The notes under the pieces are model-generated. The model searched no databases. It saw only the letters and a program-made list of their open reading frames with translations, and had not been told where the DNA came from. The position numbers and the translations under genes were made by a program. A DNA stretch of 33,396 nt from Sphaeroforma arctica JP610 (taxonomy: Eukaryota). The stretch lies in NCBI RefSeq assembly GCF_001186125.1, contig NW_014040002.1, forward strand, positions 26,859 through 60,254. Reading direction: 5' to 3'. Positions 2,290-27,460 of this stretch are shown piece by piece (within the stretch, counting starts at the first letter, position 1; each line of letters starts with the position of its first letter).

Positions 2290-5200
2290 TTAGGCCTGAA
2301 GTCGCAGGTTCTCATGGAAATTTCGCCCGTCTGTAGTGGCGTCAATAATGCCAGCACGGATAACGAAATCACCGAAGGTTTCCCCATGGTGACGGTCAGA
2401 AGCATACTGCTTGAATATAGGCTCGATGAGTTCGAGGATCTGTGCCTCGTTCACGCTCTCGCGGTATAGTTTGTTCAGACGCTCACCTGAATGACTACCA
2501 CCCAGTAACATGTTGTATGTACCTGGAGCTCGGCCCACGAACGCAATTTCTGCCATATAGGGCCTTGCGCATCCGTTGGGACAACCAGTCATACGGATAA
2601 CTATACTATCTTGTCTGAGACCGAACTGTTCGAGGAGGTCCTCCATCTTTGTAATGAGACTGGGCAAGTACCGCTCACTCTCGGCCATGGCTAATGCACA
2701 GGTAGGTAAGGCTACGCAAGCCATCGAGTTAAGTCTGAGACCTGTTGCGATTAAATGAAAAATAGAGTAAGTAGGGGACATATAGAATAGCGTTCATAAG
2801 GATACAATACAGAAGCAGGACCAACCGTCGACGTACAAGAGCGAATCAAAAACTTACCGGACATTTTCTCATTGCCGATTCCGTACTTGTGCATAATCTC
2901 ATCAATTATAGGCTTGTTATCATTCGAAACGTTTCCGAAAATGATATGTTGATTGGCGGTCAAGCGGAAATCACAGATTTTCTTCAACGCAATCTCCTTA
3001 AGGGCGGTCTTCATTTGAAGCTGAGGAGTGTCGATCACACGACCATTCGTAATGAACAAACAGTAGTGGTTTGTACCGTTCACACCCTTAGTCCATCCGT
3101 ATCTGTTTGTATAGCACGGCAAAATGAGAGTTTAGGGATCAGACAGTTGTACAAGGGGGTAAATTCATATCCGAGAACAACCAGTCAGACAATTCTACAG
3201 GACAAAAAGATATGAATAATAAACTTGAATGCTACATACCTGTCAGAATTATTCTTGAATGTAATAGGCATGCTAGGCTCCAACTTAAAACCAGCACGCT
3301 CCTCGACCTGCTCTCTGAACCAATCAATGCCGTGATCGTCCACAGTGTATTTGAGACGAGCATGTTTGCGGTTGACACGCTCACCATGGTCTCTCTGTAC
3401 CAACATAACTTTCTCACCCACAATCAATCCCTGCTCTGGGGTACAGAAGCCCAGCTGCTTCGCAATCTGAGGATACGTTTTCTTGTTACTGTGTGTCACA
3501 CCCATACCACCTCCCACGCTCACATTATAACCCAGCAACTTCCCGTCCGAAATGACAGCTGTGTATCCCAAGCAGTGGGCATATACATCCACATCATTGT
3601 TTGGCGGTACAGCAATAGCAATCTTGAATTTACGGGGCAGGTAGGTCTCGCCGTAAAGGGGTTCGTGATCCTTGTGCACGTCACCAGCCACCATCTTCTT
3701 GTCCAACCAAATCTCGTGGTAAGCTGAAGTCTGAGGTGACAAGTGCCGACTGAGCTCTCGGGCAAAGTGGTCCACCTCAGCGTGTACCGCACTCTCAAAA
3801 GGATTGGGGTTACACATCACATTTCTGTTTACATCGCCACAAGCGGCGAGTGTGTCCATGAGAGCCGCGTTGATGCCCTGAATGGTGGGCTTGAGCTTCT
3901 TCTTAATCACACCATGCAGCTGATAGGCCTGGCGGGTTGTCAGCTTGATGGTTCCATTTGCATGAGAGTCCGCAAGCGCGTCCATGGCTAGATACTGATC
4001 CGCTGTGGAGACACCTCCGGGCACACGCACACGGATCATAAATGAGAAGGCATTTTCCAGACCCTGGGCCTTGCGCTCTTCTCGGAGATCTCGATCGTCC
4101 TGCTGATAGATCCCGTGAAATTTAGTCAACTTAGTATCTCTCTCGGCAAGTGCACCGGTGCTCTCATCCGCCAACCCCTCCAAGATGGTGCCTCGCAAGA
4201 AGTTAGATCCAGTCTTAATGTCGTCATCAGTAATCTTGGGTGGTGCCGGACCGCCGCTGATACCGGCGACACCCAGAGCTTCCCACACGAGCTCCAACCA
4301 GGGCTCTAGTGCAGTATTGAAACCATCATCAGCCGAATCGTCTCCCAAGCCAATAGGGACCAAGCGTTGGCCACCCATAACCTCCAAACGCTCGTCAAGA
4401 TCCTTAGCCGGCTTACAAAAGTATAACTCACCCTCGGCACCAGGCCAGTAGTGAACATCTCCCAGCCCGAAGATCGCATATTGAGTGTTGTTGAGCGGTG
4501 TGTCGGAGGCCTGTAGTCCCTTCCATAGATCTTTGAAGTTGCCTGGGAACTCTCCCTGACCTGCTGTACAAAGCAGAAATATGACTTTGGTTTCCAAAGA
4601 CAAATCATCGGCCTCAAACTCATCACCAGCCATGCAACGAGCATTGAGTCCTCGTCCTTTCGCTTCGCGCTCCATGTTCTTGGCTACACCCTCAGCATTA
4701 CCGCCATCACTTCCATATAAGAATAGCACGGGGTCTCCACTCAAACCACTCAATAGACTGGAGTATGCCGCCACCGCCTTAGCCATGGTTTTAGTGTGTG
4801 TCTCGACAACCTTAGTTTCGGTCGATTTAGCTAGTGCTGGTGCTACGACGATCTTGTCCGCGGCCATCACACTCAGCTGTTTATCTTTCGCAAGGAAATC
4901 TAGCAAATCTTTCTTTGCTCGCTCGGAGTCCAACGAGAAGTTGTCCTTGCCGTTGTGCTCGTTCTGCGGGTTCCATCGGTACAATGGCCACAAACCACTA
5001 TCGACGGCTCGTTTTGTCTCTTTAAGAGCCTCCAATGGCTTAAGTGACTCTGAGATCCCCAGGGCACCAGCATCAACATGTGGCATGTATGCTAGAACGA
5101 CACTAGGACCGGGATAGCGGTCTGCTTCCATGCACGCTCGCAGTACTTGTGTGTAAGATGAGTAGAGTGCTACAGAAGCAACATAGCAGCCTCCATAGTT

Positions 5201-7356
5201 CATGGAGTACAAACCAATGTCCTTCTTCATCTTTTGGTGTCTGTTCTTGGACGTATGGGAGTAGGGCTGTGTGTCTAGGATAAGCACATTTACATCCTCT
5301 CCTCCGGAGATGATATGGTGTACACCACTGTCACTTAAATCACGTGCCCAATCATCACCACCAACTAGCCACCTCGACTTCTTGCTGAAGAGTTCACGAT
5401 CCTCGAATATACTGCTCAAAACCCCGTTCCCGTTCGCCTCTACACTTAGCAGTTCAGATATTTTTTCTTCTAGCGCCGCGGATTCCTTAGCGTCCTCCCG
5501 ATTCTGCAGCCATTGCAAAAAGAATTCCTTCAACCCCTCGCTCAAACCGATAGACTTGTCCCATAGTGCATGGTTTACAAGTTCAGCCAACTTACTTCGT
5601 CTCTGAAGATTGGCCGAGTGTACTCCGTAACCATATTCAATGGTGGACTTACCACCGTCACCCCATACTGTGGCGGAGCCGAATGCATTGGCAATAGCTA
5701 ATCTTTCTGCAAACAGGTGCTGTAATACCTTCACATATTGATTGTCTACATCATCGGACTTCTCGTCTGAAACCTTCAACGTGTGCAGTTTATCAACTCC
5801 CCCCTTGCCCAAAACAAAGGATGTTGCGGGTGTAGGAGAAGAAACGTGCTGAAATGCGGTTTGTACAATTTCGTGGGAGATACTTGACCCCTGAATTTGA
5901 CCACCGATCACCAAAGGTCGCTCATTCGAGTTCCAAAGATCCTCACTAGTTTCGTAAATAGCAGCCATGACATCCAAGTATAATGGACCGTAATAACTAC
6001 CATTCGACTGAGTTACATCTAACACTGCGATGCGTTTGCAAGTCTTCGGCAATGCTTTGATAAGCATGGCGCCAGACCACGGTCGAACCATACGGCACAG
6101 GAGTACACCACACTTGTCCCCAGCTTGTGAGTGACTAATAGTGTCGGCGAACACACTGCCAACAGTGCCTACAGCCAAGACAACGTGCTCTGCGTCTTTG
6201 GGTCCAACATATTCGAAAATGTGATAGCGATGTCCCAGAACGTTGGTCAGATCCTGTGCAATCATAAACAATACATATGAGGTACACATTTGCTTCATGG
6301 CGCAGAAATTATCAGAGAAGGGTTAACTAGAAAATGACAAACAAAAAGCAGGTCAAATCGACACTGTCAACAGGAATATAAAAATTAAACAACATATCGA
6401 GATAAACAACTAGGCGTACCTTCATAACCTCTTCAACTGCGGTGGGGAAATCAACTGATTCTGTCTTTGTCTCTGCCTCCGATCCCTCTTCTGCAGTCTC
6501 CTCGTGACTTTTATCTCCCTTTTTCTTGTAGTTATCAATAGTATCTGCATCGCCTTGAATGAACTCGAGCAGGGACTCCTTGTTAGCAAGAGCCACCGAG
6601 CCTTCGCGTGTGCTATCCCCATCGAAGAAATGAATGCTGGGAGTATTAGTGCGAGAGGCAGCGATCTGTGCAATAATAGACAGATCATGTGCTTCCTGTG
6701 TGGTCTGAGAGCTAAAGATAGCAAATCCAATCTCACTTAAAGCCATCACATCTCCGTGATCTGCGAGAGGCACTCCATTTGCCATGACCGTGGGGGCTGT
6801 TTGTACTAATAGGGCCCATTTTTCTTCGGCGACGTTATAAAGTGCTGGAATTAAGGACAATAGATTGTCGCTCGTAGTGTGTACCACAGTGAAGGGTGTG
6901 TTAGACGCCGCCGACTCCAAGGCTGAGGCACTGCCCGCAGCGTTCTGAGCAAAAATAAAACATATCAAGAGTAAGTCACACAGTAGCAACATTTGAAAAG
7001 AAGATATCTAATGAATATACGAGTGTTGAGGGTATTGCTCTGAGTAGGTTAACAATGGGCGTAAATCGAAGGCGGTGCAAACGGCATTCGGCCAAGAAAT
7101 TACGTACCCTGGATTCCACAACTGATATGTCCCTATCGAAGGAGTTTTTTTCTTGTGATAGTCCTTTTAGGGCTGAGTGTCCGCCGAGAACGGGTCTACC
7201 ACTGGCAGAGTCGAAGATGAAGACCTCATCGGCGAACAGATGGGTCACATGCGCAACCGCGACATCGGCAGTAACTTTTGGCGTTGCAGTAGCCGATGCT
7301 TTGCTGTTGCGTCCCCAGAGATTGCCCAAGGCATTCACAACGAAACTGGCCTGCAT
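2290..7356 (-). CDS. MET5: Sulfite reductase [NADPH] beta (hemoprotein) subunit, fungal Met5/ECM17 type: PFOR-like N-terminal domains + flavodoxin + NIR/SIR siroheme-[4Fe-4S] domains, about 1494 aa
   Basis: Exons 7356-7108, 6944-6420, 6253-3240, 3102-2858, 2741-2290. All four introns are GT..AG with consistent phases (0,0,2,1); spliced CDS is 4485 nt. Motifs: flavodoxin [11 protein letters not shown] and FGLGD; hemoprotein [30 protein letters not shown]; Fe-S/siroheme cysteines ACVALPTC and MTGCPNGC. Confidence 0.95.
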
Positions 7357-9930: not shown

Positions 9931-9932
<2 letters not shown>

Positions 9933-9974
<42 letters not shown>

Positions 9975-9986
9975 ATAGTATATTAT

Positions 9987-10605: not shown

Positions 10606-12618
10606 TTAACTGCTTTTCGTTGCATTTTCTCGCAGAATAGCCACGACCTCCGGGTACGCGAACCATTCGGGAATCTCTTCGCCTTCAACCAGCATTTTTC
10701 TGAACTTGGTACCAGAGATACTCATTGGTGTGTAGCCCTTCTCCTTAGCCTCGTCCACTGGAATGTATGCCTCTTCCTCCTTGGCATATACCATTGCCAT
10801 AAATGGCACCATGGTCACTCCAAGTTCCTTCTGCAGAGGCATCATAAGATCCTGCGCATCATATGCGCCGTAGAAGTCGTTACCTGACTTGTCCTTGCAG
10901 CCCGCATGATCGCGTCCGATAATCATGTGCGTGCAGCCATAATTCTTACGGATGAGGGCATGTTGCAAAGCTTCCCGAGGTCCACCGACCATCATACTGT
11001 AAGGAAGGTACTCGAAAGATACATGGTCGAGCTTCTTGGCCAGAGCATCGTACGTTAATTTGCGAACGGTGGCTGGAATATCGTCGTCCTTAGTGGGGCC
11101 GATAACAGGGTGGACCAGCACATCAGCATCATACTTCTCGTGTGCTCGCAAAAACATGGTGGCATGTGCTCTGTGAAGGGGGTTTCGTGACTGAAATGCG
11201 ATCAAATTCTTCCCTGGTGTTTTACTCGCTCTGATTTGTGCGGGAGTCTTACAGTCCACCCAATCTCGTTGCGGAAGCTTGTAAGCGTACACTTTTCCGC
11301 CAATATTGAACTTCTTCTTCTCCATGAGTACGTGGTACACTGATGGATGCTCCTCATTGACGGTACCGTACACCTTCTCGGCCTCGATGGAACGATTGGG
11401 TGTCCATTTGCTAGTGACATGAATGCACCCATGTCCACCAAATAGTGGATCCTTCAATTCAACCCAGTCCCCGATCTGAACGGACTCATCGTCAGTATCC
11501 AGAGTAACGGGCAGTCCAAATAGCTGGCCCTCGGGCAATCGCATATCTGCGATCACAGAGTTGTACTCGGTCTCGTTCATAAACCCTTCAAGAGGAGAAA
11601 ATCCACCGACAGAAAGCAGCTCAAAATCGCACACTTGGCGCTCGTTCATAGTGTGGATATGCGTGCAGTTGCTAAGAGGTGTTTCTATGCTGGCAACACC
11701 TCCCTCCACTAGTAGTTCTACTAGTTTACCACCGTGAGGTTCTCCCTTGCTGGTAATGCGTGTGTGAATACCGCATTCAGTTTGTAGGCGACCCACGAAG
11801 CGACCGGATCGCTCAGAGTCCTCGTATTGGACAGGTACAGAAGTATGTGTATCACCAAAACTCTTCCAGATATATACATATGGTGCTTGAGCGTGAATGT
11901 ACGCTTTGCTGTAAGCAAAGAAAGGAAGCGAAAGCTCCACCTTCTCAAACTTACTGTAAGTATCGCGATCTTCTGCGTAAACCTTTTCCTTAGACACTGT
12001 GATAGTCTTGTGCAGCGCGTTGTATGGCACATTGTATAGTAACACATACTCGCATACCTCCGACCAAGACCAACCAGCAAGAGGATTGAAGGTGCTTTTC
12101 TGAGGCTCCCATGTGTCAAGCGAGACTCGCTCATTGCCTTGATCGCAACGGCGACCTGTAATAGACACTTCCTTTCCAACCTCGTTCAATGCATTCACTA
12201 GAGGATCAATTTTGCTGTGCTTGTCGAAGTCGTCGTAAGACAGGGTCGCGTGGTTCCCGAACTTGGCCTCAAATTCCTCCTTGGTATTGCAGCCCTCAGG
12301 TTTTCTAATCACTGCCTTGAAGTTGTACTTGGCCTCCATTTCGGTGACAACATCGAGCGTCTCTGGGAACAAATGCAAAGTGTCGACACCAACGACAGTA
12401 GGCATAAAGTCGGCAAAGCGGGAGAAAAGATCAACGATCACATTATCACTAACCAGCCAGGCTGATACGACTACAATCTTCTCGGGCTGAAATGATGAGA
12501 GGTGATTCTGTACATCCGTCTTGAAGTTGTTGATCTTCTCCTTAAGATTTGCCGTTATCTCGACGGGCGTAGAGTTTTCTACGCGAGCGCGCTTAGCAGA
12601 ACCGTTAGCAACCGTCAT
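10606..12618 (-). CDS. cysH-sat: Bifunctional APS/PAPS reductase (CysH/Met16 family, about aa 1-285) fused to ATP sulfurylase (Sat/Met3 family, about aa 294-670); intronless, 670 aa
   Basis: Reductase motifs: DTLHLFPET, ITGRRCDQ, FNPLAGWS, YNALH, SFGDTHTS, ERSGRF, ECGIH. After an 8-aa linker, sulfurylase motifs: PHGGKL, DFELLSVGGFSPLEGFM, FQSRNPLHRAH, GPREALQHALIRKNYGCTHMIIGRDHAG, ISGTKFR. One continuous ORF. Confidence 0.93.
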   Translation of the reverse strand: MTVANGSAKRARVENSTPVEITANLKEKINNFKTDVQNHLSSFQPEKIVVVSAWLVSDNVIVDLFSRFADFMPTVVGVDTLHLFPETLDVVTEMEAKYNFKAVIRKPEGCNTKEEFEAKFGNHATLSYDDFDKHSKIDPLVNALNEVGKEVSITGRRCDQGNERVSLDTWEPQKSTFNPLAGWSWSEVCEYVLLYNVPYNALHKTITVSKEKVYAEDRDTYSKFEKVELSLPFFAYSKAYIHAQAPYVYIWKSFGDTHTSVPVQYEDSERSGRFVGRLQTECGIHTRITSKGEPHGGKLVELLVEGGVASIETPLSNCTHIHTMNERQVCDFELLSVGGFSPLEGFMNETEYNSVIADMRLPEGQLFGLPVTLDTDDESVQIGDWVELKDPLFGGHGCIHVTSKWTPNRSIEAEKVYGTVNEEHPSVYHVLMEKKKFNIGGKVYAYKLPQRDWVDCKTPAQIRASKTPGKNLIAFQSRNPLHRAHATMFLRAHEKYDADVLVHPVIGPTKDDDIPATVRKLTYDALAKKLDHVSFEYLPYSMMVGGPREALQHALIRKNYGCTHMIIGRDHAGCKDKSGNDFYGAYDAQDLMMPLQKELGVTMVPFMAMVYAKEEEAYIPVDEAKEKGYTPMSISGTKFRKMLVEGEEIPEWFAYPEVVAILRENATKSS

Positions 12619-13993
12619 GATTATATGTTTGATCGACTAGGTGGCAATGTATGTCTTCAAATAGGCTCAATGTACGCTGTGTGCTTCAAATAAGTATGAA
12701 AGTCCGGGTTGAGTCGACAAATATATTTTCAAAGGCTCCGTTGATTTTGAATGAACCACACGGTATTATATATTTTATTTTAATTTTTTTAACTAACGGC
12801 CTTCTCTCTCTCTTTTGTGTTGACGCTTGCTCGAATCAGACGTATGACATGTTGACATTTGACATGCATTGAAACTTTGAAAGTTCATTCAAATTGATAA
12901 AATATATAGGGCTTATGATTGGTGAATCGTTATTCATGACGGGAATTTCTTTCTGGCTTTTTGTCCCACATACAAGAAGCCAGCTATGCGACAAAAATTC
13001 AAAAATATAGCGAGAAACGGGACTGGGGACATATCAGGTCCAAAATAAATATTGTGAACAAAAATTGATCGATCAAATTGATCATTTGCCTGTAATCCCA
13101 TTCGTCCGCGTCCAATTTTCTGATGCATCAGCTGATCGGAGTCATCGGACAACAAAAATCGAAACAAAATGACGACTCGGCACTCTCGCGGTAAGATCGG
13201 GATTGTGGAGACTCTGGGAGAGGACTCAGAGGAGTCCGGAGGTGGGGCGTGGGGCGCCATGCCAGGGGCTGACGGCCATTTTTTTTTTTACAGTAAAGGG
13301 AAGGCATGTCTGAGTGAGTCTGAGTGTCTGACTGTCTGATCGCCTGTGGCCGTGGGTTCCAAACTTCCAGCTGGTTGTGAGTGACTTTTTTTGTGACAGT
13401 CAGATACTTCACAGCCTCGCAGGCTCGCCCTCTGCACAGCTCACCACACTCACAGCCTCACAGGGGGTGTGGGGGGGGGACTAATAATAAAGTGATGACA
13501 CAGTTAAAAAAAATGGCATGCTTTTGTCGAATATCTGGCACACACGATTGTAGTATTTCGTATTTTATTTTATTTATATTTATTTATTTTAGAAGGGGGG
13601 GGGGGTCGGAGATCTAGAGCCTAGAGGGGGGTGGATATTGGGGGTTGGACCGACTTGGACGTTAGACGGCTGGAGTCTTGGACAGTTTAGTAGAGCCTGA
13701 GAGACGAGATTGACCTTTTGTGGACGGGTCATCCGTGACAGGCTCTCTCGGTTTCACCTACTCGCCTATAAAATAGATATATGAAAATCGTGGTATTTTG
13801 TAGTATGACTGTATGTGATGCCAGCTTTAAAAACCTGAGGAAGCTTTTCATATATCCTTATGTACATTGCTTATTCTAAACATTCTCACACTTGAGGTAT
13901 TGGTCGACGAGATTTTCCGCCACTACGAACTAGATTCATTTATAACATTGTGAGCTCCTTTAAAAGTTGCTAGTGATATCAAACAAGGTCAAC
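12619..13993. promoter_or_regulatory. Divergent intergenic region, candidate bidirectional promoter for the fusion gene and the methyltransferase
   Basis: Head-to-head start codons 1375 bp apart. Contains three TGACAT copies (12846-12866), the palindrome TTGATCGATCAA (13065-13076), G-tracts, and TATAAAA near 13767 upstream of the methyltransferase. Confidence 0.5.
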
Positions 13994-15269: not shown

Positions 15270-15288
15270 GATATATATTTTTTTATAA

Positions 15289-15321
<33 letters not shown>

Positions 15322-15537
15322 GTTATATGTAAGTGTCTTTATATCTATATATGTATGTATTTATGTATGTATGTACATATATAAATGAATACAAACATAC
15401 ATATATATATATATATATATGTATGAATGTACGTATATATGTATATATGTATATTTATATATATATATATATATATGCATGTGTATGTGTATGTATACGT
15501 ATATAGATAAAAATATGTATATACATATATACATATG

Positions 15538-15587
<50 letters not shown>

Positions 15588-16100
15588 TGTTTGTGTTTGT
15601 GTGTTTGTGTGTGTGTATACGTGTGTTCATGCGTGAATGTATATAAGTGTACTTATATATTTACGTATATATGTATATATAAACGCAAGTATGTATGTTT
15701 GTATGTCTGTATGTATGTATTTTTAAATGGATGTATGCATGTATGTATGCATGTATGTGCGTATGTACGCACGCATGTATGTATGTATGTATATACGCAT
15801 GTTTGTTCATATGTATATATGTATGTATGCATGTAAGTATGTATCTATCTATCTATCTATAAATGTATGTATGTATGCTTATATGTATATATGTATGTTT
15901 GTATGTATATATGTATGTATGTATGTGTATGTATTTATGTTTGTGTGTGTGTATGTATGTATGTATGTTTTTAGGTAGAATCGTATGTATACATGTATGC
16001 ATGCATCTATTCATCTATGTTTGTATGTATCCATATAGGTAAATATTGTATATATATACATACACATATATATCTATATATACATATATGTATAGATAGT
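15270..16100. repeat. Large compound microsatellite (TA)n/(TATG)n/(TG)n
   Basis: About 0.8 kb of TA, TATG and TG units; the overlapping Y/I/C/V/M-rich ORFs are artefacts. Confidence 0.95.
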
Positions 16101-16118
16101 ACCATTCTGAGTCGGAGA

Positions 16119-16938
16119 NNNNNNNNNNNNNNNNNNNNNNNNNNNNNNNNNNNNNNNNNNNNNNNNNNNNNNNNNNNNNNNNNNNNNNNNNNNNNNNNNN
16201 NNNNNNNNNNNNNNNNNNNNNNNNNNNNNNNNNNNNNNNNNNNNNNNNNNNNNNNNNNNNNNNNNNNNNNNNNNNNNNNNNNNNNNNNNNNNNNNNNNNN
16301 NNNNNNNNNNNNNNNNNNNNNNNNNNNNNNNNNNNNNNNNNNNNNNNNNNNNNNNNNNNNNNNNNNNNNNNNNNNNNNNNNNNNNNNNNNNNNNNNNNNN
16401 NNNNNNNNNNNNNNNNNNNNNNNNNNNNNNNNNNNNNNNNNNNNNNNNNNNNNNNNNNNNNNNNNNNNNNNNNNNNNNNNNNNNNNNNNNNNNNNNNNNN
16501 NNNNNNNNNNNNNNNNNNNNNNNNNNNNNNNNNNNNNNNNNNNNNNNNNNNNNNNNNNNNNNNNNNNNNNNNNNNNNNNNNNNNNNNNNNNNNNNNNNNN
16601 NNNNNNNNNNNNNNNNNNNNNNNNNNNNNNNNNNNNNNNNNNNNNNNNNNNNNNNNNNNNNNNNNNNNNNNNNNNNNNNNNNNNNNNNNNNNNNNNNNNN
16701 NNNNNNNNNNNNNNNNNNNNNNNNNNNNNNNNNNNNNNNNNNNNNNNNNNNNNNNNNNNNNNNNNNNNNNNNNNNNNNNNNNNNNNNNNNNNNNNNNNNN
16801 NNNNNNNNNNNNNNNNNNNNNNNNNNNNNNNNNNNNNNNNNNNNNNNNNNNNNNNNNNNNNNNNNNNNNNNNNNNNNNNNNNNNNNNNNNNNNNNNNNNN
16901 NNNNNNNNNNNNNNNNNNNNNNNNNNNNNNNNNNNNNN
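16119..16938. other. Assembly gap (820 N)
   Basis: Run of N next to a microsatellite. Confidence 1.
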
Positions 16939-17170: not shown

Positions 17171-19911
17171 TTAGACATTGCAGGGTTCCTCGGAACTATC
17201 TAGCTCCGGACTCGTAGCATTGGATGGTTCATTGGCTTCACTCATACTGGCCGTCGAAACTTCACTGTTACTGCGACTGCCTCTCGTTGAAGCTTCACTA
17301 TGACTCCTGCTGCTTCCTTCTGTGTCTATATTCACTATTTCTGACTCTACCTCCACAGTCATGTTCGTGTTCGTCGATGCTCTGGCTATCTTCAGTTTGA
17401 ATTTCTCGCCGTCTTGAGATTCCCCCGATCGGGAGGAATTTGAAGCCACCACCGTGACAGGCGGTCCCTGTAATGATAGCGCTGTATCGGGAGATCCGGA
17501 TGAAGTCATCGACCGACTCTCGACATTCTCTTGCAGCTGCTCGTCATTATCGGCGGCCTCGACATCTGGATCGTCCCGCCAACGCTTAGGGCGGAGCCGC
17601 CGTTGTACTGTACTCCATTGACTCTGCACAAACGAGTCCTCAGCACTTGTTATTACATAAGCATAGAGGGCTCCAAGAAGGCCCACTAACACCGAGAAGA
17701 TTGCAATAAACCACCGTTGTTCGTAAAAATATAGGACACAAATCGTCACCGCGAATCCTATAATCTGCAGAGGAAATCCAGTCTTCGCGTAGTTTTTGGT
17801 GTCGTACCGACCAGGTCCCATCACCATTAGCGACGTTTTGTCGCCAGATGGCAGCATGAAGCTGTGAGAGGCCCCCATTAGCACTGCGTACACGACTTGC
17901 GTATAGTACGAGGTCTCGGCTATCGATGAATCTCGAAGGATGGGAAGCAGAAGCGCTACGGCCGCATTGTTGTTGATAAATGAAGACAGTAGAGTTGCGA
18001 AGAGGTAGAAAACTAGATAGATCAGTATTTCACTTAAATCTGCTGTGATCGTTGTGATGACATCCGCCATTCTCGTCGTAAGTCCACTAGTCTGCATCGC
18101 AGCCGCCAATCCGAGAGCACCCATAATAGTCATTAATACCTTGGCATTTTTAAGAAAGACGCTCCCGACAGTTCCAAAGGTGATGACCAAACTGGCAATC
18201 TGAATAGTGACTACTCCCAACAGGATCCTGTTTTGTTAGTATAAATTTGTAATTAGTGCAGCTCCACACAGTTCATTGGAAAACATTTGAAAGCCACAGA
18301 ATAACATACAGAGAGTTCAAACGACGAAAACTTACCTTGCAAACTCGTTGACGAAGATGTTCAGGACGATGGCACCCGCAAATATAACAGTGTTGAACGC
18401 TATCAACCAAATATTGATGCTTTTTGTTTCTACCTTTGTGCCACATGTTTCGCACTTTGTGGCCTTGATGCCAAGTTGAACTACTAAGCTGAAATCTTGA
18501 GAATTCTCTGCAAGTTCAAGAAATCTCTCGTCGGATTCTACAATCAGAAGATCCCGGGGCATCAATGGCAGCTGTAACTGCTCTACATTCCCAACTATTA
18601 GGGTGCCGCCCCGATATACTTGGAGTATGAGAGCGCTATACTCTTTGCGTAGTCGGTCCCGATACGCGCCAAATGTGTCCAAACTGGGGCCTACGTCAGC
18701 AATAACGACTTCAAACAATCGACCTGATGATCCCTGATGTTGGTCGGGAGCGAGCTTCACCAAACCGTAGCAGCACTTTACACTGACGAGCCTCTCTAAG
18801 GACCCAGCAAATGTTAGGGTGTCCCCCACCCTGAAGGTAGTACTTGGCCGCAAAGGAAATGCACAGGTCCCATCATTGTGGTCCACTCGCTTAAGTTGCA
18901 ACTCGGCAGAATCATACAGACCAACTTCATTAGCGGTTTTACCGACCAAGAAATGCCCGTCCGGAATCTCAAAGCGAACAGCATACGACATAATATCATC
19001 AAAATCGGCATCGTCGTCCTCCGGTAGAGATATTTTGTTTTCAGGCAATAATCGGTGCGAAAAGAACATAAGATATAGCACACCAAAGCCTAGCACACTC
19101 AGACCTAATGGCGTGATGTCAAAAGTTCCCAGATTAAGCCCCGAGATATTGTTGGCTACCAAATTAGTACTGCTTCCGATCATAGTGCAAGTTCCACCCA
19201 AAACCGATGCATAACTCAGCGGTATCATCAACTTCCCGACGCCCCTAAAAATGTGGTAGGAGGAATAAATGTTAAGATTGGTTTATCGTTTTGGACTCAC
19301 GGTCATGTAAGCCTGAACTTATTGAAATGATACTAGTAGCATACTTTACAACGAAAATGACACTCGATACTCGCAAACTTGTTGGGAGCGACAGATAGGA
19401 CAATGAAGGACTAATCAACGATACGTTGCACCCGCTATAGCTGTATACTACAGTATATATTGCTTCGCTTCAAACACGAGTTCACCCCATACCTGTTATG
19501 ACCGACAGCCCAACGGATTAGTGTGGGAATGAGTACAGCAACTACGGCAGAGTTGTACATAAATCCGGATAACATCGGTACGAACACACAAAGGACCGTG
19601 ATGCATCTTTCAACGCTGCCAGTCTTTGGCAGCAAGTGCCGCGTTAGGATATCATCTAAGCCTGCCTTTGCCAACCCATGCCCAATAACTAATAATAGTG
19701 CTATTGTGAATACTGTAGTGTCTGAAAACGCCTCCAAAATTACATTTATTGTGGCTCCTCCAAAGAGTATGATAAATATGATAGGGATGAGAAAGCATGT
19801 GTGCGGTTCTAACTTCTGACTGAGAAGCAGAATGACTGTCGCTACTAAGGCGATGCCTACGATCACTGTTTCGTACGTCGTGTACTCTCCCACATCTAAT
19901 TCCCCAGCCAT
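17171..19911 (-). CDS. SLC13/DASS-family anion permease with central TrkA-C (RCK_C) domains, SLT/SAC1-like; probable Na+/sulfate transporter, about 794 aa
   Basis: Exons 19911-19493, 19244-18336, 18227-17171 with GT..AG introns, both phase 2, and an ACTAAC branch site before exon 3; spliced CDS is 2385 nt. Motifs SGFMYNSAVVAVLIP, KLMIPLSYASVLGGTCTMIGSSTNLV, TrkA-C-like FEIPDGHFLVGKTANEVGL, LSSFINNNAAVALLLP, LMVMGPGRY. Sulfate as substrate is inferred from family and gene context. Confidence 0.88.
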
Positions 19912-20568
19912 CGTATGCGATGCACTGGCCTTACGAAGTTAAATTGTGGTATGCTCTGGCCTTACTAAGTTGTAGATACGATCAATTTAGGCAGAATTCA
20001 GTTTTTGTATATTGTATGCAATGTGTATTCTTCTGTGGCTACTCTGGTTGTATAGCTCGTATCTCATAGTCGATTGAAGTTTGTTTCTGTCATATAGTTG
20101 TACAGAAGAGTATCATAAAGTACACCACAGCAGATAAGTTTTTTTTTGTGGCGAGAATGTGTCGTACTGTCGGGTGATGTTTGCTCATTAAGCGAATAAC
20201 AAGAATTGGGATTTCAACTCTTATATAGGATTCGATCCGCTGCCTCTGTATAGATGTTCCATGGTCTCAGAGACTCGCACTAAATTTAAATTTAAATCAT
20301 TGTACATGAAATAATATTACAATATATAATCACTTGTTGTTGCTGCATATCCAGTTGGATTAGGTGTATTTTTCAAACTTTGACCTTGTGACGGTCCTCA
20401 AGAGTCAAAGACTCTCGAGTCTCGAACTCTCGACACTATTCACAGTTTCAGATTCGGAGTTGAAATATTGTTTGTACATGCAAACATACTCGGAGAGAGA
20501 ACAATAACAGCTCTCCTTCTCAGTAGTAAAATTCTACCACACATTCACAATACGAAATAGTCAAATAG

Positions 20569-20612
20569 AATAGGGATAAATCTATTAATAAATAGGGATA
20601 AATTCTATTAAT
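20569..20612. repeat. Short perfect direct repeat (AATAGGGATAAATCTATTAATA) x2
   Basis: Read directly in the transporter/MET10 intergenic region. Confidence 0.8.
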
Positions 20613-23446
20613 ATTACTTTAAGACGGAATAGACAAATAAAAACGCAACTCTTTTTCTATAAATATCCTATATATATAAATAAGTACCGTTTATGGCTAC
20701 TGTTGGGGCGAACAGCCAAGCTGCACGACCGAATAATGTTTATATAAAGTTAACCACACAAATCACAAGACACAGGTACACACTGTACCAAGTTCAATAC
20801 AATAAGTTAAAATATCAGATCAAGCCCATAGGAATGGCAACTATAAAATAAATATTAGTGTTGGCACTGGGCAACACAGTGAGAACACCAAGAAAAAGCA
20901 TATGAAAAATTTCACAGCACATGATGAACATCTCGTATATTAGATGAGACCATATATCTATATATCAGATATCTGTCCAATTAAAATACTTTCCGCTTAC
21001 ACTTATCCGTCACTAATCAGGAACCACACTCCCAAATCCCAATCTTCTATTCTCTCTATTTTTAGTTAATAATATTTCTAGAATGAGTTATGAGGGATCA
21101 CTGATGATTCAATATCCATAGAGAGAATCAAAAAATCTGACAACATATGTGTACGTCTAAAAATATGAAAATGGGTTTTTTTAGAACAAAAAGTAGCCTG
21201 CGTCCTGCGGTCAGACCTGTACAGACCTTTACTTTTTTTTACTTTTTACTTTTTTTTAGGCCTTGGGGCTGGGGGAGTGGGGGGCACTGTGGTCTAGGGG
21301 CTGGCGGCTGGGGGGCGAGGCTGCGGGAGTGCGCCAGTGCTAGGGGGTAAAAAGTTATATATATAAATGTGTGCGTGAGTGATTTCAAGGTATTTATTTG
21401 TAGCTATAGTATTGGTCGGCGAATTGACTATTTGGACATTCCAATAATTTGAGATCTGAACTATATAAATACAATCAGTATTGACATATTTATTTAACTA
21501 TTTTAAAAAACCGATACAGATGTACATACACATATTTGAATTTATGTATCAGCTGAGTATTAAAATATGTGGTACATACAGTGGTCACTGTACAAAGTGT
21601 AGGACGAGACTACTATGTAGGCCGTGTAGGAGTCAGGACTCAGGATTGTATGGCTGTATGCCTGCAGGCTGCAGGCTTCAGGCTATGGGTAATTGGTTAC
21701 AAATGACTTCACATTTTGCTCAAAGAAATAATTCATGTACTCTATAGAGAGGCTCCAGAGTTCAGACTTCACAATGTACATATGTATGTTCTTCAGTTTT
21801 GAGTTACTCTGAGGCGGCAGAGCCTCAGAGCCTTAGAGCTTAGGCCCTCAAACTTCAAACTCTGAGACCAGACTGCCAGAGGCCCAGAGCTTCAGTTTCT
21901 CGCAGCCTCAGACACTCGCAGACATTGAGAGGCTGAGACTGAGGAGTAAGGACTGAGAGTCTGAGAGACTGAGAGGTACAGACCTCAGTTAACCCTTATT
22001 CCCTCCACAGTCAGATACAGAACGGAGACTCGGGACTCGGGGCTCGGGAGTTAGATCATATGTCAAGCCGTTTTCAAAAAGGCACTGCCCCTATGTAAAT
22101 ATTAGATTAGGGGCTAGCGGCCGCCCAGTGGAAGCCTGGTCGAAGCACCTTTATTAGCCTGTAGCCTTAGTCTTGGGGCTTAGAGCACGCAACAACTTCA
22201 CAGTTATATCACGTGTGTGTTGAGTTGTTGAGTTATGACTTGTTACTGTTGTTGTGTTCGCAGTTCGCAACACGATACACGACTACTCCTCTGTACTCTA
22301 TATGCTACTCTAATAAAAGCAAGGAAAAATGTCCACCGTCCGAGTTCAGAAAAGCATTTGTCACCAAGCTAGGTACGAATCATTGCGCCAGAAAAAGTCT
22401 CCAAAATCGAGGCCGTAATGTACTTGCGAAATGATTGGATTTGAAATGTCAATTCACAATATTACAAGATCAATCTTCCGTGTGTAGAAAAACTGAAAAA
22501 GAACCAAAAAGCCAAAAATAAGGAAATATTTACATGAGTTATCTGATGGCAGTGCTGCTCGCACTACTAGTAGCAGTCACTGTATTTTTTTAGTATTTTA
22601 CCAAAAAAACAAAACCCGAGTGAAAAGCGGGCAGCTTCCCAGGACCCAGTCCCTTCAAATCCAGGAATCTCTACTATAGCCCAGCCTCTCTTTCTTTCTC
22701 CTTCACATTTTTTTTACAAAAACAACAAAAGATAAATAGTAGTAGCAGCGATAGTAGTAGTACTAGTAGCAAACTCTCTAGCAATAGGCGATGCCACAGT
22801 CCACAAGTCCAAACCAAACTGGCAAACTCCAACCACAACAAGGCAACCATTCAACAGTCCGATTCCAAACCCAATGAAAAGAAACAAATATTTTCTAAAT
22901 TTCCACAAACAAAACACATGACACAATACACAGGTTTTGAGTTTTCATTCCCGATGTTTTTAATTATTTTAATTATTATATTTGTTATGTAAAAAGTATT
23001 TTAAATTTCAACCCCAAAGGAGTCAAGGACAGACACAAGAAAGTCATTGGCTCTGGGTTTATACCCAATGAAATTTGAATAAGAATGACGTCTAAAAACT
23101 GAATACTCGTAGTCCGTAGAGGAAGAAAAACCAAAAGTGGGATTTTCTTTATTTAAATTAATCTGACATTAGCTCTGTAAAAAGAATATTGCCTGTAGGC
23201 TGCAGCTGATGGTGGAAAGTGGAAAGTGAGTCTGTGACTCAGGGGGACTCCTGTCGCGACAGTCTGGAATTAAAGTCGAAATTCTCTTGGCTATCAACTT
23301 CGAAGTTGTTAATCCGCCTGATCTTCTATGTTTATTTATGATACCACACAACACTTTCAACCGATCAGTTCATCGCACTTCGACATACAATACTTCGACA
23401 TTGTTTTGGTACCTGCGATACAAAATCGACACCCTCACTATACATC

Positions 23447-26400
23447 ATGCCTCCAATTCCACATAATCTTCAAAACCGTGAGCCGGTCCAGGTCGAGACC
23501 GGCCCCGGCGCCAAATCGCCACCAAACGGCACGGGTGTGCATCGCAGATCGTCCATACGAAGCACATCGACCTCACTGAGCCGCAACTCGAGTTCTAATT
23601 TTATATCACGCACATACAGTCGCGGTAGTAGCAGCAGTCTGAATAAGATCGCATTAGACGCACAAGTGCGCTATGCAAGTGTGAACGGCCACACAGCTGC
23701 ATCGTACGTGGCCTATGCTGTGTCGGATATCAACTTCGTATACCCATCTGCGCCATCCGCTTACTTGGGGTCAGATGTCGATGAATGGCACGCGAGTGAT
23801 GTCAAAAATGCTTACGGTCATACCGGAAAGCACTCCAAACTTCAGGTAAGTACGATACCAATCAAATACAATTATCTGTGCTCTCGGTTTAGTCAAGTAT
23901 GTTTACTCGCGTCGTATTCGAGGGAAGCATGCCGTTTTTGAATAATGTGTTTCAAATTGCAGTACTAAAGTTTAATTTATTGTGCCGCAGAAAATTCGTT
24001 ATTATATAGAAACTACGTATATTTACTTCTGACTTGGCGATACACTGGTGCACATATAGATAGATGTTATGGATACCGCGTGTACAGGTTTTAAGTATAA
24101 ATTTATGCATCTATATATATGTATATGTGTGTTTTGAATGTGTATACGTGAGAACGTCCCGCATATGACTACATGTCGTACATTTCTAAAAAACTAACTA
24201 CCGACTGAGCACAATTTGTAAAAAAAAAATCATGAATATGATATTACTCACGGGACGTTAAATAAGATGGAGTTCTGATATTTATTTATTTTTATGAAAT
24301 TATAGGTGAAGGCTGGTGCTGGTTTGGTCCTCCACGGTGCTCTATCTGTGGGAGAGCTCGGTACAGTCTATGCCGCATCCGACGCTATTAAATTTATGCT
24401 ACCAACCATACATTACTTAGCAAACAGTCAGCTATCAAGCGTGATGCATTTTGATACAAAATCACTCGGCGACGACCTGACTGTTAACGTGAACCACACA
24501 CAAATCATGTTGGCTCGCAATACCGGAGCTGTTATCTTGAGTTCGCACTCGGTGCAGGAAACCCACGATATCGCACTAATTGCACACATCCTTACCCTAC
24601 GTGGTAAAGTGCCAGTAATGCACATGATAGACGGATCCAACACAGCACGGGAGACGTCACGTGCACGCCTGTTGCAGTACGGCGAGATCAACTCACTAAT
24701 GAACAAATATGGCGATCTCGAGAGACACCGCGAGCAGTCCAACTCTGCACGCCACCAGCCTGTGACGGGCTCAACCCATAACTCGTCCGAGACTACCGCA
24801 CAGATCGCCGAGGATGTTATGCGTGAGGTATCAGATGCCTTGGGTGTGCGCTACGCACCCTTCGAGTACGTAGGGGCCCGTGACGCCGAAGTCGTGGTGG
24901 TGGTAATGGGCTACCCCGCCCAGGTCTTCTCCGAAACAAGTCGTCTGTTGTGCAGTGTAGGTCGCCCTGTGGGTGTGCTTAAGATCCGTATGTACCGCCC
25001 CTGGTCCGCCCGGCACTTCGTGTCCGCGCTACCCGTATCCGCCAAGCGGCTGGTGGTTATGGACTTCACATCACCCCAGGCATCAGTGCACGTACCTGGT
25101 GCTCTGTTCTTGGATGTTTTGGCTACCGTGGAATCCCAGATCTACGGCACTAAGAAACCTCAGGTGTTGCAAGGCAAGGCCTCTGTGGCAACATTCACAC
25201 CGGCGATGGCCAAGGCCGTCTTTGACTTTGCGGCACACCAAACACGTACATCGTTCACTATTGGACACGAAGGTGCGTCAGCGTACGAGCTAGAAATTGA
25301 AGGGGATGTATCGGCTGTGCCCGAGAATGTGAGTCAGGTGCTGGTATGGCAAAAGGAGAGCGACAACCTGCTCGAACCCATGAACAACCTGCTCTCCACG
25401 CTATGTGACGGCTCCGACACATTCGTACAAAGCAACACATTCTACGATGCGTACAAGCATGGTGGGGTATCCACCTCTCACATCCGCTTGGGTCCCTCAC
25501 CAATCAACGCCCCTTATCCTATCGGCGAGGCTAACCTTGCGATCGTGTCGAGCTCATCCCTGCTAGAAGCGTACGATGTAGTGGCTTCGTTGCGAACGGG
25601 AGGTGTACTTTTAATTAACGCCAGCGTCGAGAGTGTCGACGAGAAGAGCGACGAGCTTCCTACGCTTTTCAAGCAGGAGGTTCTGAACAAGGAAATTTCA
25701 GTATATACCATCGATTTTGAAAAGATAGTGCGAGAGAGCGGATTAGAGCACGAACATGAGGCCACGGCTATGGCAGTTGCTCTGATTACTTCAATTGTTC
25801 GTTTGGCTGGGCTTGCTTCTTTCGAGGCCACCCTTGTTGATCTTCGCACTTGTCTGGATGAGAAGGCAATCGACAGTGAAGTGTTCGAACGCCAAATACA
25901 GATTCTGGAACAGGTGATCGAGAGCGGACTAGTGTTGCAAAAGATTCCGGAAAGTTGGGGAGAGGTACCTTTGCCTCTTGAGATCAAAGAGGGCGAAGAT
26001 GTACCCGAGGTTCTGGCTTTACCTACCGCGGTAGCCGGCAATTTGCTACCCAGCACTGGATACAAGTACGAGGAGCCGAAAACTCATGTGCACTCGAAGT
26101 CTCACCACGCAGCATGGATGGGTATGTTCTCTGAGGCCTATCAGACCAGGGAAGCACTCCGCCCCTCAGAGCACACATCGTATGTGGTCACGTGTACCGA
26201 GAACCGACGCCTGACACCCGACGACTACGAGAGGAATGTCTTCCATATGGAGATGGACATTACTGGCACTGGTTTGGTGTACAATATTGGAGATGCACTT
26301 GGTGTTTGGGGATCCAATGGAGATGACGAAGTGAATGATTTCCTACAGTTCTATGGTCTGAACGGTGATGATGTTGTCGGCGCTGCTCGAGCTCCGTCCG

Positions 26401-27460
26401 GTCACCATGCTGATGAGGCAATCGCGAACGCCAACGTGGAGTACAGAACTATTACGCACTGGCTGCAACAAGTGACTGACCTATTCGGCCGACCTGGTAA
26501 AGGATTTTATGAAGCCTTAGCTGAATACGCTGAAGATCCGGATGAAAAGGCGGAATTACTGCGACTAATTGGAGACACGGGCAAACCTGATTTCAAGAAG
26601 AGGGTGGAGGAGACGGTTACATACGCTGATGTATTGAGGGAGTTCCCCAGTGCGCACCCCTCAGTGGAGGATTTGATCAAGCTCATTGCACCCATCAAAC
26701 CAAGGCACTATTCTATTGCTTCGTCGCAGCGCATGCACGCAAACTCAGTGCACTTACTGGTCGTGGTACACGACTGGCAGACACCCGCAGGCAGACATCG
26801 TATCGGTCAGTGCACGCGCTACCTGGTGGGTGTACGCCCTGGAACCAAGATGACCGTGTGTGTAAAGCCGTCGGTGATGATCTTACCGCCCAGGCAGACA
26901 CAAGCATGTATCATGTCCGGCTTGGGAACGGGTATGGCACCCTTCCGCGCGTTTATACAGGAGCGTGCGTGTGCTAAGCTAGCTGGAGAAGAGGTTGGTC
27001 CTATGATCTTGTACTTCGGGTCACGTTCAAGGGGACAGGAGTACCTGTACGGAGAGGAGTTAGAGGCTTACCATGCGGATGGTCTGCTCAGCGGCCTTCG
27101 TCTGGCGTTCTCGCGAGATCAACCCCATAAGGTAAGTACATGTCAGATTAGTCTATTCTGCTGTACATGGTCTCAGTAAAATGTATTGTACTTGTTCTTC
27201 CCGCTTACGCACCTGCTTCACTTTTCACCTATCAGATATATATTCAGCACAAGATGATGGAGGACAAGGAATACCTCAACGAATACCTTAACAACAGCGA
27301 CGGACACTTCTATCTGTGCGGCCCTACATGGCCTGCGGGCGATGTTCGTGATGCTATTGTTGGCAGTTTCGTGGAAGCCGGTGGTCTGAGTGAGGCCGCG
27401 GCGACCATGACCCTACAGAAACTTAAGGATGATGAGAGATATATCCTCGAGGTGTATTAA
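23447..27460 (+). CDS. MET10: Sulfite reductase [NADPH] alpha (flavoprotein) subunit, fungal Met10 type: PFOR-like domains + FAD/NADPH-binding FNR-like domain, about 1149 aa
   Basis: Exons 23447-23845, 24306-27131, 27236-27460, with GTAAGT..AG phase-0 introns; spliced CDS is 3450 nt. Motifs KAGAGLVLHG, MYRPWS, ENRRLTPDDYERNVFH, IKPRHYSIASS, GLGTGMAPFRAF, LYFGSR, FYLCGPTWP, and C-terminal ERYILEVY. Confidence 0.95.

What the first reader, a model, noticed from the sequence alone, without database searches (positions are those of the whole stretch)
2290..27460. Operon-like eukaryotic gene cluster for assimilatory sulfate reduction
Seen: five consecutive recognisable genes are a candidate sulfate transporter, an ATP sulfurylase + APS/PAPS reductase fusion, both sulfite reductase subunits, and the methyltransferase that starts siroheme synthesis, with no recognisable unrelated gene between them. 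Known: in S. cerevisiae SUL1, MET3, MET16, MET5, MET10 and MET1 are not clustered; such clustering is typical of bacterial cys operons, and the best-known eukaryotic parallel is the nitrate-assimilation cluster. Inference: this is a co-regulated, possibly laterally mobile sulfate-to-sulfide module. I do not know of one described with this gene set.
Basis: partly seen in the sequence, partly recalled or inferred. Interest (0 to 1): 0.92.

Follow-up and report, generated by a model that had tools for sequence, protein, structure and literature searches.

The report
Ancient sulfate-assimilation gene cluster in protists
A single-celled relative of animals keeps five genes predicted to take up sulfate and reduce it to sulfide side by side and expresses them in step, and parts of this arrangement recur in three related protists, two of them very distant, so it is likely a very old, selected gene cluster that the literature searches here did not find described.

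Summary
Observation confirmed. Five intact genes lie in a row: MET5-type and MET10-type sulfite reductase subunits, a CysH–Sat fusion, a uroporphyrinogen-III methyltransferase and a SAC1/SLT-like transporter. The host is an ichthyosporean; the MET10 model equals a protein its source names as Sphaeroforma arctica.

The N gap is very likely not a misjoin. The genes carry consecutive ids in a long-read assembly (g30749–53) and in Creolimax (4553–4556). By gene number, the transporter, the fusion and a MET10-family gene are also within five ranks in Chromosphaera and Corallochytrium, where shared gene order is otherwise rare.

In a published time course the five co-vary (r 0.88–0.99) and fall 3–17-fold; both flanking genes stay flat. 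Sulfur control is untested.

It is not an operon (mixed strands, separate spliced mRNAs), and trees show no recent block transfer. The reductase domain likely uses APS directly. The fusion is known (dinoflagellates, Capsaspora), as is the sister nitrate cluster. I found no description of this cluster in eight searches, and this scan noted only bacterial analogues before. Verdict: new variant of a known kind.

The parts
2290..7356 (-). MET5-type sulfite reductase hemoprotein (beta) subunit, 1494 aa; exons 7356-7108, 6944-6420, 6253-3240, 3102-2858, 2741-2290; PFOR-like N-terminal domains, flavodoxin, NIR_SIR; Cys motifs CVALPTC (1353) and GCPNGC (1397)
   Evidence: E. coli hemoprotein E 4e-97. 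Introns from the model only; matched to Sarc4_g30749 by gene order (inference)
10606..12618 (-). APS/PAPS reductase-ATP sulfurylase fusion (CysH-Sat), 670 aa, no intron; catalytic ECGIH (Cys282), no Fe-S cysteine pairs, P-loop Asp58; fungal-type ATPS domain with no APS kinase tail
   Evidence: orthologs CFRG4556, Nk52_evm57s210, Clim_evm231s157; Sarc4_g30750 in the ATPS orthogroup
12619..13993 (.). 1375-bp spacer between the divergent CysH-Sat and SUMT genes; candidate shared promoter (inferred)
   Evidence: no shared motif found
13994..14881 (+). Stand-alone uroporphyrinogen-III C-methyltransferase (SUMT, CobA/CysG-A type), 295 aa
   Evidence: TIGR01469 193.6 bits over cut-off 185; ortholog CFRG4555 73%, paralog CFRG4047 68%
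15271..16938 (.). Microsatellite-like repeat (15271-16098) and 820-N assembly gap (16119-16938) between the convergent 3' ends of SUMT and the transporter
   Evidence: Not bridged by sequence here; adjacency rests on consecutive gene ids
17171..19911 (-). SAC1/SLT-like (SLC13/DASS superfamily) transporter with a TrkA-C loop, 794 aa; exons 19911-19493, 19244-18336, 18227-17171; candidate Na+/sulfate symporter
   Evidence: (both introns spliced in 2 of 4 runs); orthologs CFRG4554, Nk52_evm61s210, Clim_evm227s157
19912..23446 (.). 3535-bp spacer between the divergent transporter and MET10 genes; candidate shared promoter (inferred)
   Evidence: no shared motif found
23447..27460 (+). MET10-type sulfite reductase flavoprotein (alpha) subunit, 1149 aa; exons 23447-23845, 24306-27131, 27236-27460; PFOR-like domains plus FAD- and NADPH-binding domains
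   Evidence: model identical to P0241; both introns spliced in 3 of 4 runs; ortholog CFRG4553 71%; Sarc4_g30753 in OG0000179

Best explanation
These five neighbouring, separately transcribed genes are expressed in step and likely form an old, vertically inherited cluster that is predicted to import sulfate and reduce it to sulfide. Shown: gene identities, order, spliced transcripts for two genes, co-variation over the life cycle, and neighbourhood of orthologs by gene id in Creolimax (4 genes) and in Chromosphaera and Corallochytrium (2 genes at ortholog level, a third at family level). Inferred steps: (1) The SLT-like protein brings in sulfate, probably with Na+. (2) The ATP sulfurylase domain makes APS. 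(3) The fused Fe-S-free reductase domain reduces APS directly to sulfite through Cys282, using a thioredoxin encoded elsewhere, so no APS kinase is needed (about 75% for APS over PAPS). (4) MET10 passes electrons from NADPH through FAD to the flavodoxin domain of MET5, and on to its siroheme-[4Fe-4S] site, which makes sulfide. (5) SUMT diverts uroporphyrinogen III to precorrin-2 for siroheme; the last two siroheme steps and sulfide incorporation are encoded outside. (6) Linkage is kept by selection for joint control, through two divergent promoters and a local chromatin domain, which would also limit build-up of sulfite. The core (transporter, fusion, reductase) likely dates from the common ancestor of ichthyosporeans and Corallochytrium; SUMT may be a later recruit.
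For: Domains and models. Splicing. Creolimax ids 4553, 4554, 4555, 4556 are MET10, transporter, SUMT, fusion, in the window's order and across the gap. Long-read S. arctica ids: g30750 in the ATPS orthogroup and g30753 in the MET10-family orthogroup, three ranks apart as predicted. Chromosphaera scaffold 210: 57 fusion, 59 MET10 family, 61 transporter. Corallochytrium scaffold 157: 227 transporter, 231 fusion; g478 MET10 family against g481 fusion. Background microsynteny among these lineages is reported as little or none, except Creolimax-Sphaeroforma (907 genes) and Chromosphaera-Corallochytrium (72) (PMC5560861). Expression: r 0.88-0.99 over 20 samples, fold drop 3.1-17, flanks 1.1 and 1.2; 5 of 5 in co-expression cluster C0. 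S. arctica grows axenically on sea salts, dextrose, nitrate and nanomolar vitamins, a medium with sulfate as the only bulk sulfur (PMC6400420; my reading of the recipe). APS use: best PDB sequence match is moss APR-B 4BWV; Asp58 aligns with its Asp, where three PAPS reductases have Gly, Gly or Ala; Asp in 107 of 120 homologs (12 gaps, 1 Glu) and the Fe-S motif in 0 of 120. Vertical descent: the five teretosporean transporters form one clade (SH-like 100); the named holozoan fusions sit in one 12-row clade (99); MET10 groups with Creolimax and Amoebidium (99).
Against: All cross-species synteny is read from gene ids, not from DNA. MET5 was not located in any other species, and SUMT only in Creolimax. 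The Chromosphaera and Corallochytrium MET10 calls are family-level (5 and 4 members), and neither protein was among the 120 listed hits. An unrelated gene (evm60s210, OG0001700) interrupts the Chromosphaera block. Clim_g numbers can be far apart for clustered genes (g5611 and g4940). By id, ATPS is not near a MET10-family gene in Capsaspora, Ichthyophonus, Fonticula or Mortierella (78 of 130 columns shown). C0 is the large growth cluster (2081 of 14,557 expressed genes), and 4 of the 15 other ids g30740-59 are in it too; three of them correlate at 0.82-0.89. The time course was in rich broth with no sulfur change. No shared promoter motif. APR-B and yeast PAPS reductase score almost equally (103.4 and 101.6 bits; Foldseek puts 2OQ2 one rank above 4BWV). 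The role of the P-loop Asp is recalled; its source papers were not held. The transporter's substrate is untested, and the family includes carboxylate carriers. Trees are FastTree on best hits, without outgroups.
Confidence: 0.78

Rival explanations
1. The cluster is a passive remnant of old gene order, and the shared expression only reflects the general growth-phase programme, with no selection for linkage or sulfur-specific control.
For: Creolimax and Sphaeroforma share 907 syntenic genes anyway. C0 holds 14% of expressed genes, and unrelated neighbours g30743, g30744 and g30756 correlate at 0.82-0.89. No common motif. An unrelated gene sits inside the Chromosphaera block.
Against: Five genes of one pathway in a row cannot be a random remnant. 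Neighbourhood persists in lineages with little other synteny. Four of the five fall 9-17-fold, against 1.1-4.4 for the other growth-phase or flanking neighbours examined, and both immediate flanks are flat.
Confidence: 0.1
2. The cluster is a laterally mobile cassette that came in, or moved on, as a block, as proposed for the nitrate cluster between stramenopiles and opisthokonts.
For: The nitrate cluster of the same organisms has such a history (PMC6400420). The best non-ichthyosporean SUMT hits are mostly oomycete. The CysH-Sat fusion is shared only with alveolates among named hits. The transporter family includes algal and bacterial members.
Against: The genes point to different outside relatives (MET10 to fungi, the fusion to dinoflagellates, SUMT unresolved, the transporter to algae and choanoflagellates), which a single donor would not give. 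Each follows holozoan kinship inside its clade. Three genes have spliceosomal introns. No block was found elsewhere, though the 60 metagenome loci were mostly 1-3 kb contigs with no neighbours, so that test was weak.
Confidence: 0.08
3. The two halves are joined by a scaffolding error at the N gap, so the real units are a three-gene and a two-gene group.
For: The gap is 820 N beside low-complexity repeat, and no sequence bridging it was seen here.
Against: Consecutive ids across the gap in Creolimax (4554, 4555) and in the PacBio-based S. arctica annotation (g30749-53). Genes from both sides are near each other in Chromosphaera and Corallochytrium.
Confidence: 0.02

Closest known systems
Nitrate assimilation cluster (NRT2, EUKNR, NAD(P)H-NIR, with TPmet in Creolimax, Corallochytrium and Aplanochytrium); PMC6400420
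   Same: Transporter plus reductases plus a uroporphyrinogen-III methyltransferase for siroheme; same organisms; separate co-regulated genes.
   Different: Other pathway and locus (SARC_08916-08918 against SARC_07207). Nutrient control and transfer between lineages are argued for nitrate, not shown here. That paper has no occurrence of 'sulfate' in its main text.
APR-ATPS fusion of Heterocapsa, Amphidinium, Chromera and Capsaspora; PMC2275785, PMC4220642
   Same: Same domain order, no Fe-S motif; 59% identity to the Capsaspora protein.
   Different: Published as a lone gene of unexplained origin, with no activity data. Here it is found across ichthyosporeans, Corallochytrium and further holozoan transcriptomes, and it sits in a cluster.
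Fungal NADPH sulfite reductase MET5/MET10 and the dispersed fungal pathway (sB, sC, sD, sA; PMC6923255)
   Same: Two-subunit enzyme with PFOR-like N-terminal domains; MET10 is 35-40% identical to most fungal hits.
   Different: Fungi use a different sulfate permease family, ATPS with a kinase-like tail, APS kinase and PAPS reductase, and the passages read give no clustering. A two-gene ATPS-PAPS reductase linkage in Aspergillus is recalled, not checked.
Bacterial cys operons with siroheme genes (Bacillus subtilis cysH-cysP-sat-cysC-sumT-sirB-sirC; from earlier finding e1-803691 and recall)
   Same: Similar functional content: permease, Sat, CysH, SUMT.
   Different: No polycistronic RNA; mixed strands; introns; eukaryote-type subunits; no cysC, sirB or sirC; so convergence, not descent.
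Chlamydomonas SAC1/SLT Na+/sulfate transporters; PMC3355512, PMC8780407
   Same: SLC13-like permease with an intracellular TrkA-C loop; same broad clade as Volvox, Mesostigma and Monosiga homologs.
   Different: About 27-30% identity; one TrkA-C detected (SLTs have 3-4, SAC1 has 2); long low-complexity tail; described as specific to green lineages; not clustered with reductases in what I read.

Membership tests
Eukaryotic nutrient-assimilation gene cluster (nitrate-cluster type) | Consecutive genes of one pathway, non-paralogous, including transporter and reductases | tested here: met
Eukaryotic nutrient-assimilation gene cluster (nitrate-cluster type) | Linkage conserved between species | tested here: met
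   By gene id only: 4 of 5 genes in Creolimax; 2 orthologs plus 1 family member in each of Chromosphaera and Corallochytrium
Eukaryotic nutrient-assimilation gene cluster (nitrate-cluster type) | Co-expression | tested here: met
   r 0.88-0.99, 5 of 5 in cluster C0, flanks flat; partly explained by growth phase
Eukaryotic nutrient-assimilation gene cluster (nitrate-cluster type) | Joint regulation by the nutrient | not testable with these tools
   No sulfur-shift data found
Eukaryotic nutrient-assimilation gene cluster (nitrate-cluster type) | Transfer as a block between lineages | tested here: inconclusive
   No sign in unrooted best-hit trees; sampling limited
Operon (bacterial cys type) | Co-directional genes on one polycistronic RNA | tested here: not met
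   Strands -,-,+,-,+; transporter and MET10 on separate spliced contigs
APR-ATPS fusion (dinoflagellate/Capsaspora type) | N-terminal sulfonucleotide reductase joined to a C-terminal ATP sulfurylase in one frame | tested here: met
APR-B type (Fe-S-free APS reductase) | No CC..CxxC Fe-S motif; ECG(I/L)H catalytic motif | tested here: met
   (motif in 0 of 120); this feature is shared with PAPS reductases
APR-B type (Fe-S-free APS reductase) | Acidic P-loop residue as in APS reductases (criterion recalled) | tested here: met
   Asp58 aligns with Asp of 4BWV; Gly, Gly, Ala in 2OQ2, 7RGE, 6VPU
APR-B type (Fe-S-free APS reductase) | Measured preference for APS over PAPS | not testable with these tools
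   Needs an enzyme assay
Fungal-type NADPH sulfite reductase | Alpha subunit with FAD/NADPH domains; beta subunit with flavodoxin, NIR_SIR and four cofactor cysteines | tested here: met
SAC1/SLT sulfate transporters | SLC13-like permease with TrkA-C domain(s), grouping with algal members | tested here: inconclusive
   One TrkA-C; in a 27-row clade (96) with Volvox, Mesostigma and Monosiga homologs, on a long branch; no characterised SLT in the tree
SAC1/SLT sulfate transporters | Na+-dependent sulfate uptake | not testable with these tools
   Needs a transport assay
Complete siroheme pathway (MET1+MET8 / CysG) | Dehydrogenase and ferrochelatase as well as methyltransferase | tested here: not met
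   Only the TP_methylase domain is in the window; the rest of the genome was not available

The most novel reading that the evidence does not exclude
A complete sulfate-to-sulfide cluster was assembled in a single-celled ancestor near the base of Holozoa and has been held together by selection ever since, in lineages whose gene order is otherwise scrambled. It runs an algal-style APS route (fused, Fe-S-free, no PAPS step) into a fungal-style sulfite reductase. This would be the first such cluster in any eukaryote, a sulfur twin of the nitrate cluster with its own duplicated siroheme methyltransferase, and a living record of the pathway that animals lost.
Probability: 0.45. Interest if true: 0.87.

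Novelty: new variant of a known kind. Interest (0 to 1): 0.76.

Why it matters
Clusters for primary nutrient assimilation are rare in eukaryotes, and the nitrate cluster is the standard case. A sulfate counterpart conserved across very deep splits, in cultured relatives of animals, gives a second case for asking why such clusters form and persist. [quoted passage not shown]

Tried and rejected
Run search: no RNA holder listed on record; this is no evidence on expression. No reads were laid on the left half, so the MET5 introns are unconfirmed. The three RNA-guess runs show no cover from 20168 to 23335; a hole proves nothing. Metagenome scans: 0 of 107 stretches confirmed, then 60 loci, mostly short transcript-like contigs or distant CysH matches, whose neighbours I did not analyse. 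L047 is not in a held genome. k-mer and recalled yeast-motif scan of the spacers gave only A/T-rich words. Supplement searches with no hit: Creolimax ids in PMC4739763, 'CFRG' spelling in PMC6855841, Cfra_4552/4554/4555/4557/4558/4047 in the cut orthogroup file, evm ids in PMC5560861, Clim_g47x/48x in PMC6400420 file 3. evm58s210, evm62s210, Clim_g479 and Clim_g480 are absent from the stored part of the orthogroup file, which is uninformative. Abeoforma ids (s9087, s13768) are first genes on separate small scaffolds, so uninformative. The AlphaFold model (pLDDT 80, catalytic tail under 50) and Foldseek did not separate APR-B from PAPS reductase. The first transporter tree did not finish; FastTree was used on 126 of 151 rows. 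Three papers were not held. No complex prediction was sent: MET5-MET10 is a textbook pair over the size limit. Rejected: operon, recent bacterial origin, misjoin.
Full report
OBSERVATION. The window holds five intact genes between 2290 and 27460. Models with GT..AG introns and no internal stop: MET5-type subunit (-, 1494 aa, 4 introns), CysH-Sat fusion (-, 670 aa), SUMT (+, 295 aa), transporter (-, 794 aa, 2 introns), MET10-type subunit (+, 1149 aa, 2 introns). Pfam and NCBIfam give NIR_SIR, flavodoxin and POR_N for MET5; PAPS_reduct, PUA_2 and ATP-sulfurylase for the fusion; TIGR01469 above cut-off for SUMT; CitMHS, Na_sulph_symp and TrkA_C for the transporter; POR, FAD- and NAD-binding domains for MET10. 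No other long ORF lies between them. The right flank is Raptor. The spliced MET10 model equals P0241, which its source names as Sphaeroforma arctica SARC_07207.

TRANSCRIPTS. Of 4 runs laid on 17000-27550, contigs skip both transporter introns in 2 and both MET10 introns in 3. The DNA run shows none of these joints and reads through MET10 intron 1. The RNA label of the three runs is the tool's guess. The two genes are on separate contigs and opposite strands, so this is not an operon.

THE GAP. It is 820 N beside microsatellite repeat, and I saw no bridging sequence. Two annotations support adjacency. In Creolimax the orthologs are CFRG4553 (MET10, 71%), 4554 (transporter, 84% on exon 2), 4555 (SUMT, 73%) and 4556 (fusion, 82%). 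In the PacBio-based S. arctica annotation of PMC6855841, g30750 is in the ATP sulfurylase orthogroup and g30753 in the MET10-family orthogroup; g30749, g30751 and g30752 are assigned to MET5, SUMT and the transporter by order (inference). The expected Creolimax MET5 (4557) was not seen, because the orthogroup file is cut.

AGE. The next-best transporter hits are Nk52_evm61s210 (Chromosphaera) and Clim_evm227s157 (Corallochytrium). The fusions of these species are evm57s210 and evm231s157: same scaffold, four ranks away in both. The MET10-family orthogroup contains Nk52_evm59s210 and Clim_g478, where the Corallochytrium fusion is g481. With recalled gene totals each coincidence has a chance of about 1e-3. 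PMC5560861 reports little or no microsynteny among these lineages, apart from Creolimax-Sphaeroforma (907 genes) and Chromosphaera-Corallochytrium (72). The Creolimax match is therefore partly background, but the match to the other two is not. PMC11286789 puts the ichthyosporean-animal split near 1100 million years ago, with caveats. Limits: this is id evidence, not DNA; the MET10 calls are family-level (5 and 4 members) and these proteins were not among the 120 hits listed; evm60s210 is an unrelated gene inside the Chromosphaera block (its Arabidopsis member is recalled as a MUTY glycosylase); MET5 and SUMT are not placed in these species. By id, ATPS is not near a MET10-family gene in Capsaspora, Ichthyophonus, Fonticula or Mortierella (78 of 130 columns shown).

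EXPRESSION. In the 20-sample life-cycle table, the five genes correlate at r 0.88-0.99 on log values and fall 8.8, 11.4, 3.1, 10.6 and 17.0-fold from early to late samples. The flanks g30748 and g30754 change 1.1 and 1.2-fold (15 genes g30743-57 examined). All five are in co-expression cluster C0. Against this, C0 is the growth cluster with 2081 of 14,557 expressed genes, 4 of the 15 other ids g30740-59 are also in it, and three of those correlate at 0.82-0.89. The culture was rich broth. Co-expression is shown; sulfur control is not. No shared motif was found. PMC6400420 grew S. arctica axenically on sea salts, dextrose, trace metals, nanomolar vitamins and nitrate. Sulfate is the only bulk sulfur there, which indirectly supports a working pathway (my inference; carry-over not excluded).

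MECHANISM. Likely flow: sulfate uptake by the SLT-like protein, APS from the ATP sulfurylase domain (closest solved structures are fungal), sulfite from the fused reductase, sulfide from MET10/MET5, with SUMT starting siroheme synthesis. The reductase domain has ECGIH (Cys282) and no Fe-S motif (0 of 120 homologs). Its best PDB sequence match is moss APR-B, narrowly ahead of yeast PAPS reductase (103.4 and 101.6 bits). Asp58 aligns with the Asp of APR-B, where three PAPS reductases have Gly or Ala, and it is kept in 107 of 120 homologs (12 gaps, 1 Glu). That this Asp excludes the 3'-phosphate is recalled; the papers were not held. No APS kinase is in the cluster, which fits an APS route. I put APS use at about 75%. 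The cluster is not self-sufficient: the last siroheme steps, thioredoxin and sulfide incorporation are missing from the window.

ORIGIN. FastTree trees on best hits (unrooted, SH-like support): five teretosporean transporters form one clade (100) within a 27-row group that includes Volvox, Mesostigma, Monosiga and Ancoracysta homologs (126 of 151 rows). The named holozoan fusions fall in one 12-row clade (99), apart from dinoflagellate fusions (42 of 120 rows). MET10 groups with Creolimax and Amoebidium (99; 27 of 120 rows). SUMT groups with CFRG4555 (93) and then CFRG4047 (100), its deeper place unresolved. Outside relatives differ by gene, so assembly in place and vertical descent fit better than block transfer. 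Single-gene transfer, for instance of the fusion, stays open.

WHAT IS KNOWN. The fusion is described for Heterocapsa (PMC2275785) and for Amphidinium, Chromera and Capsaspora, with no activity data (PMC4220642). The nitrate cluster with a siroheme methyltransferase is described in these organisms (PMC6400420); its S. arctica locus is different. SAC1/SLT transporters are described as specific to green algae and non-seed plants (PMC3355512, PMC8780407). Eight searches for a eukaryotic sulfate cluster listed no paper describing one; for most hits I saw only the listing, and subscription journals are largely missing. A two-gene linkage in Aspergillus is recalled, not checked. This scan's earlier notes hold only bacterial analogues.

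WHAT I SAW OF EACH PAPER. PMC6400420: passages, section 16 whole, supplement hits (files 13-31 not searched, file 3 cut). PMC6855841: passages and rows of supplements 2, 4, 7 and 9 (2 and 7 cut at 4.0 million characters). PMC5560861: passages and a blank supplement search. PMC4739763: blank supplement search only. PMC2275785, PMC4220642, PMC11286789, PMC8173546, PMC3355512, PMC8780407, PMC6923255, PMC11350084: passages. The unseen part of the orthogroup file (OG0003905, OG0004240, OG0004472) would directly show where the transporter, MET5 and SUMT sit in other species, and the unseen TPmet tree figures would show which Creolimax methyltransferase is in the nitrate cluster.

VERDICT. Real, likely ancient, co-expressed cluster of known parts in an arrangement I could not find in print. 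New variant of a known kind; interest 0.76.

Noticed in passing
P0244-P0360 (table): 40 of the 120 listed MET10 hits carry siroheme-synthase parts in the same polypeptide: 14 with PF00590 plus PF13241 (chytrids such as Spizellomyces) and 26 with PF13241 only (glomeromycetes, Basidiobolus, some chytrids). This fusion parallels the linkage of SUMT to the reductase here; its methylase part is only 27-33% like the window's SUMT.
   Followed up: partly
P0122, P0123; Creolimax has two close SUMT paralogs (4555 in this cluster, 4047) and a more distant one (5164). One of the others may be the copy in the nitrate cluster, giving one methyltransferase per siroheme enzyme; not confirmed.
   Followed up: partly
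P0003, P0004, P0007, P0008: The CysH-Sat fusion also occurs in proteins labelled Colp12 and Opistho-2 (recalled as Syssomonas and Pigoraptor) and in Abeoforma, so it looks ancestral to several unicellular holozoan lines, wider than published.
   Followed up: partly
window 31207-33326 (-): C-terminal WD40 exons of Raptor (E 3e-14 to human Raptor). Sarc4_g30754 and g30755 correlate at 0.90 and may be two pieces of this gene.
   Followed up: partly
window 27554-27895: Tandem array of ten 34-bp units just after the MET10 stop; smaller arrays at 30750-30944 (54 bp x 3.7) and 29878-29946.
   Followed up: no
window 14836-14990: The last ~55 bp of SUMT and its stop are followed about 100 bp later by a diverged second copy (seen).
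   Followed up: no
window 17171-17650 (-): The transporter ends in a ~160-residue Ser/Glu-rich low-complexity tail, a possible regulatory region, as might suit a SAC1-like sensor.
   Followed up: no
PMC6400420 file 3: Chromosphaera Nk52_10066 looks like a full siroheme synthase (dehydrogenase-like N-terminus plus methylase), unlike the stand-alone SUMT here.
   Followed up: no
window 121-462 (-): Possible exon of the left flanking gene (perhaps Sarc4_g30748, OG0000187); no Pfam match.
   Followed up: no
run X20 on window 17211-27451: A run labelled as another organism carries the same spliced transporter and MET10 transcripts with about 2-3% differences, so a close relative has both genes.
   Followed up: no
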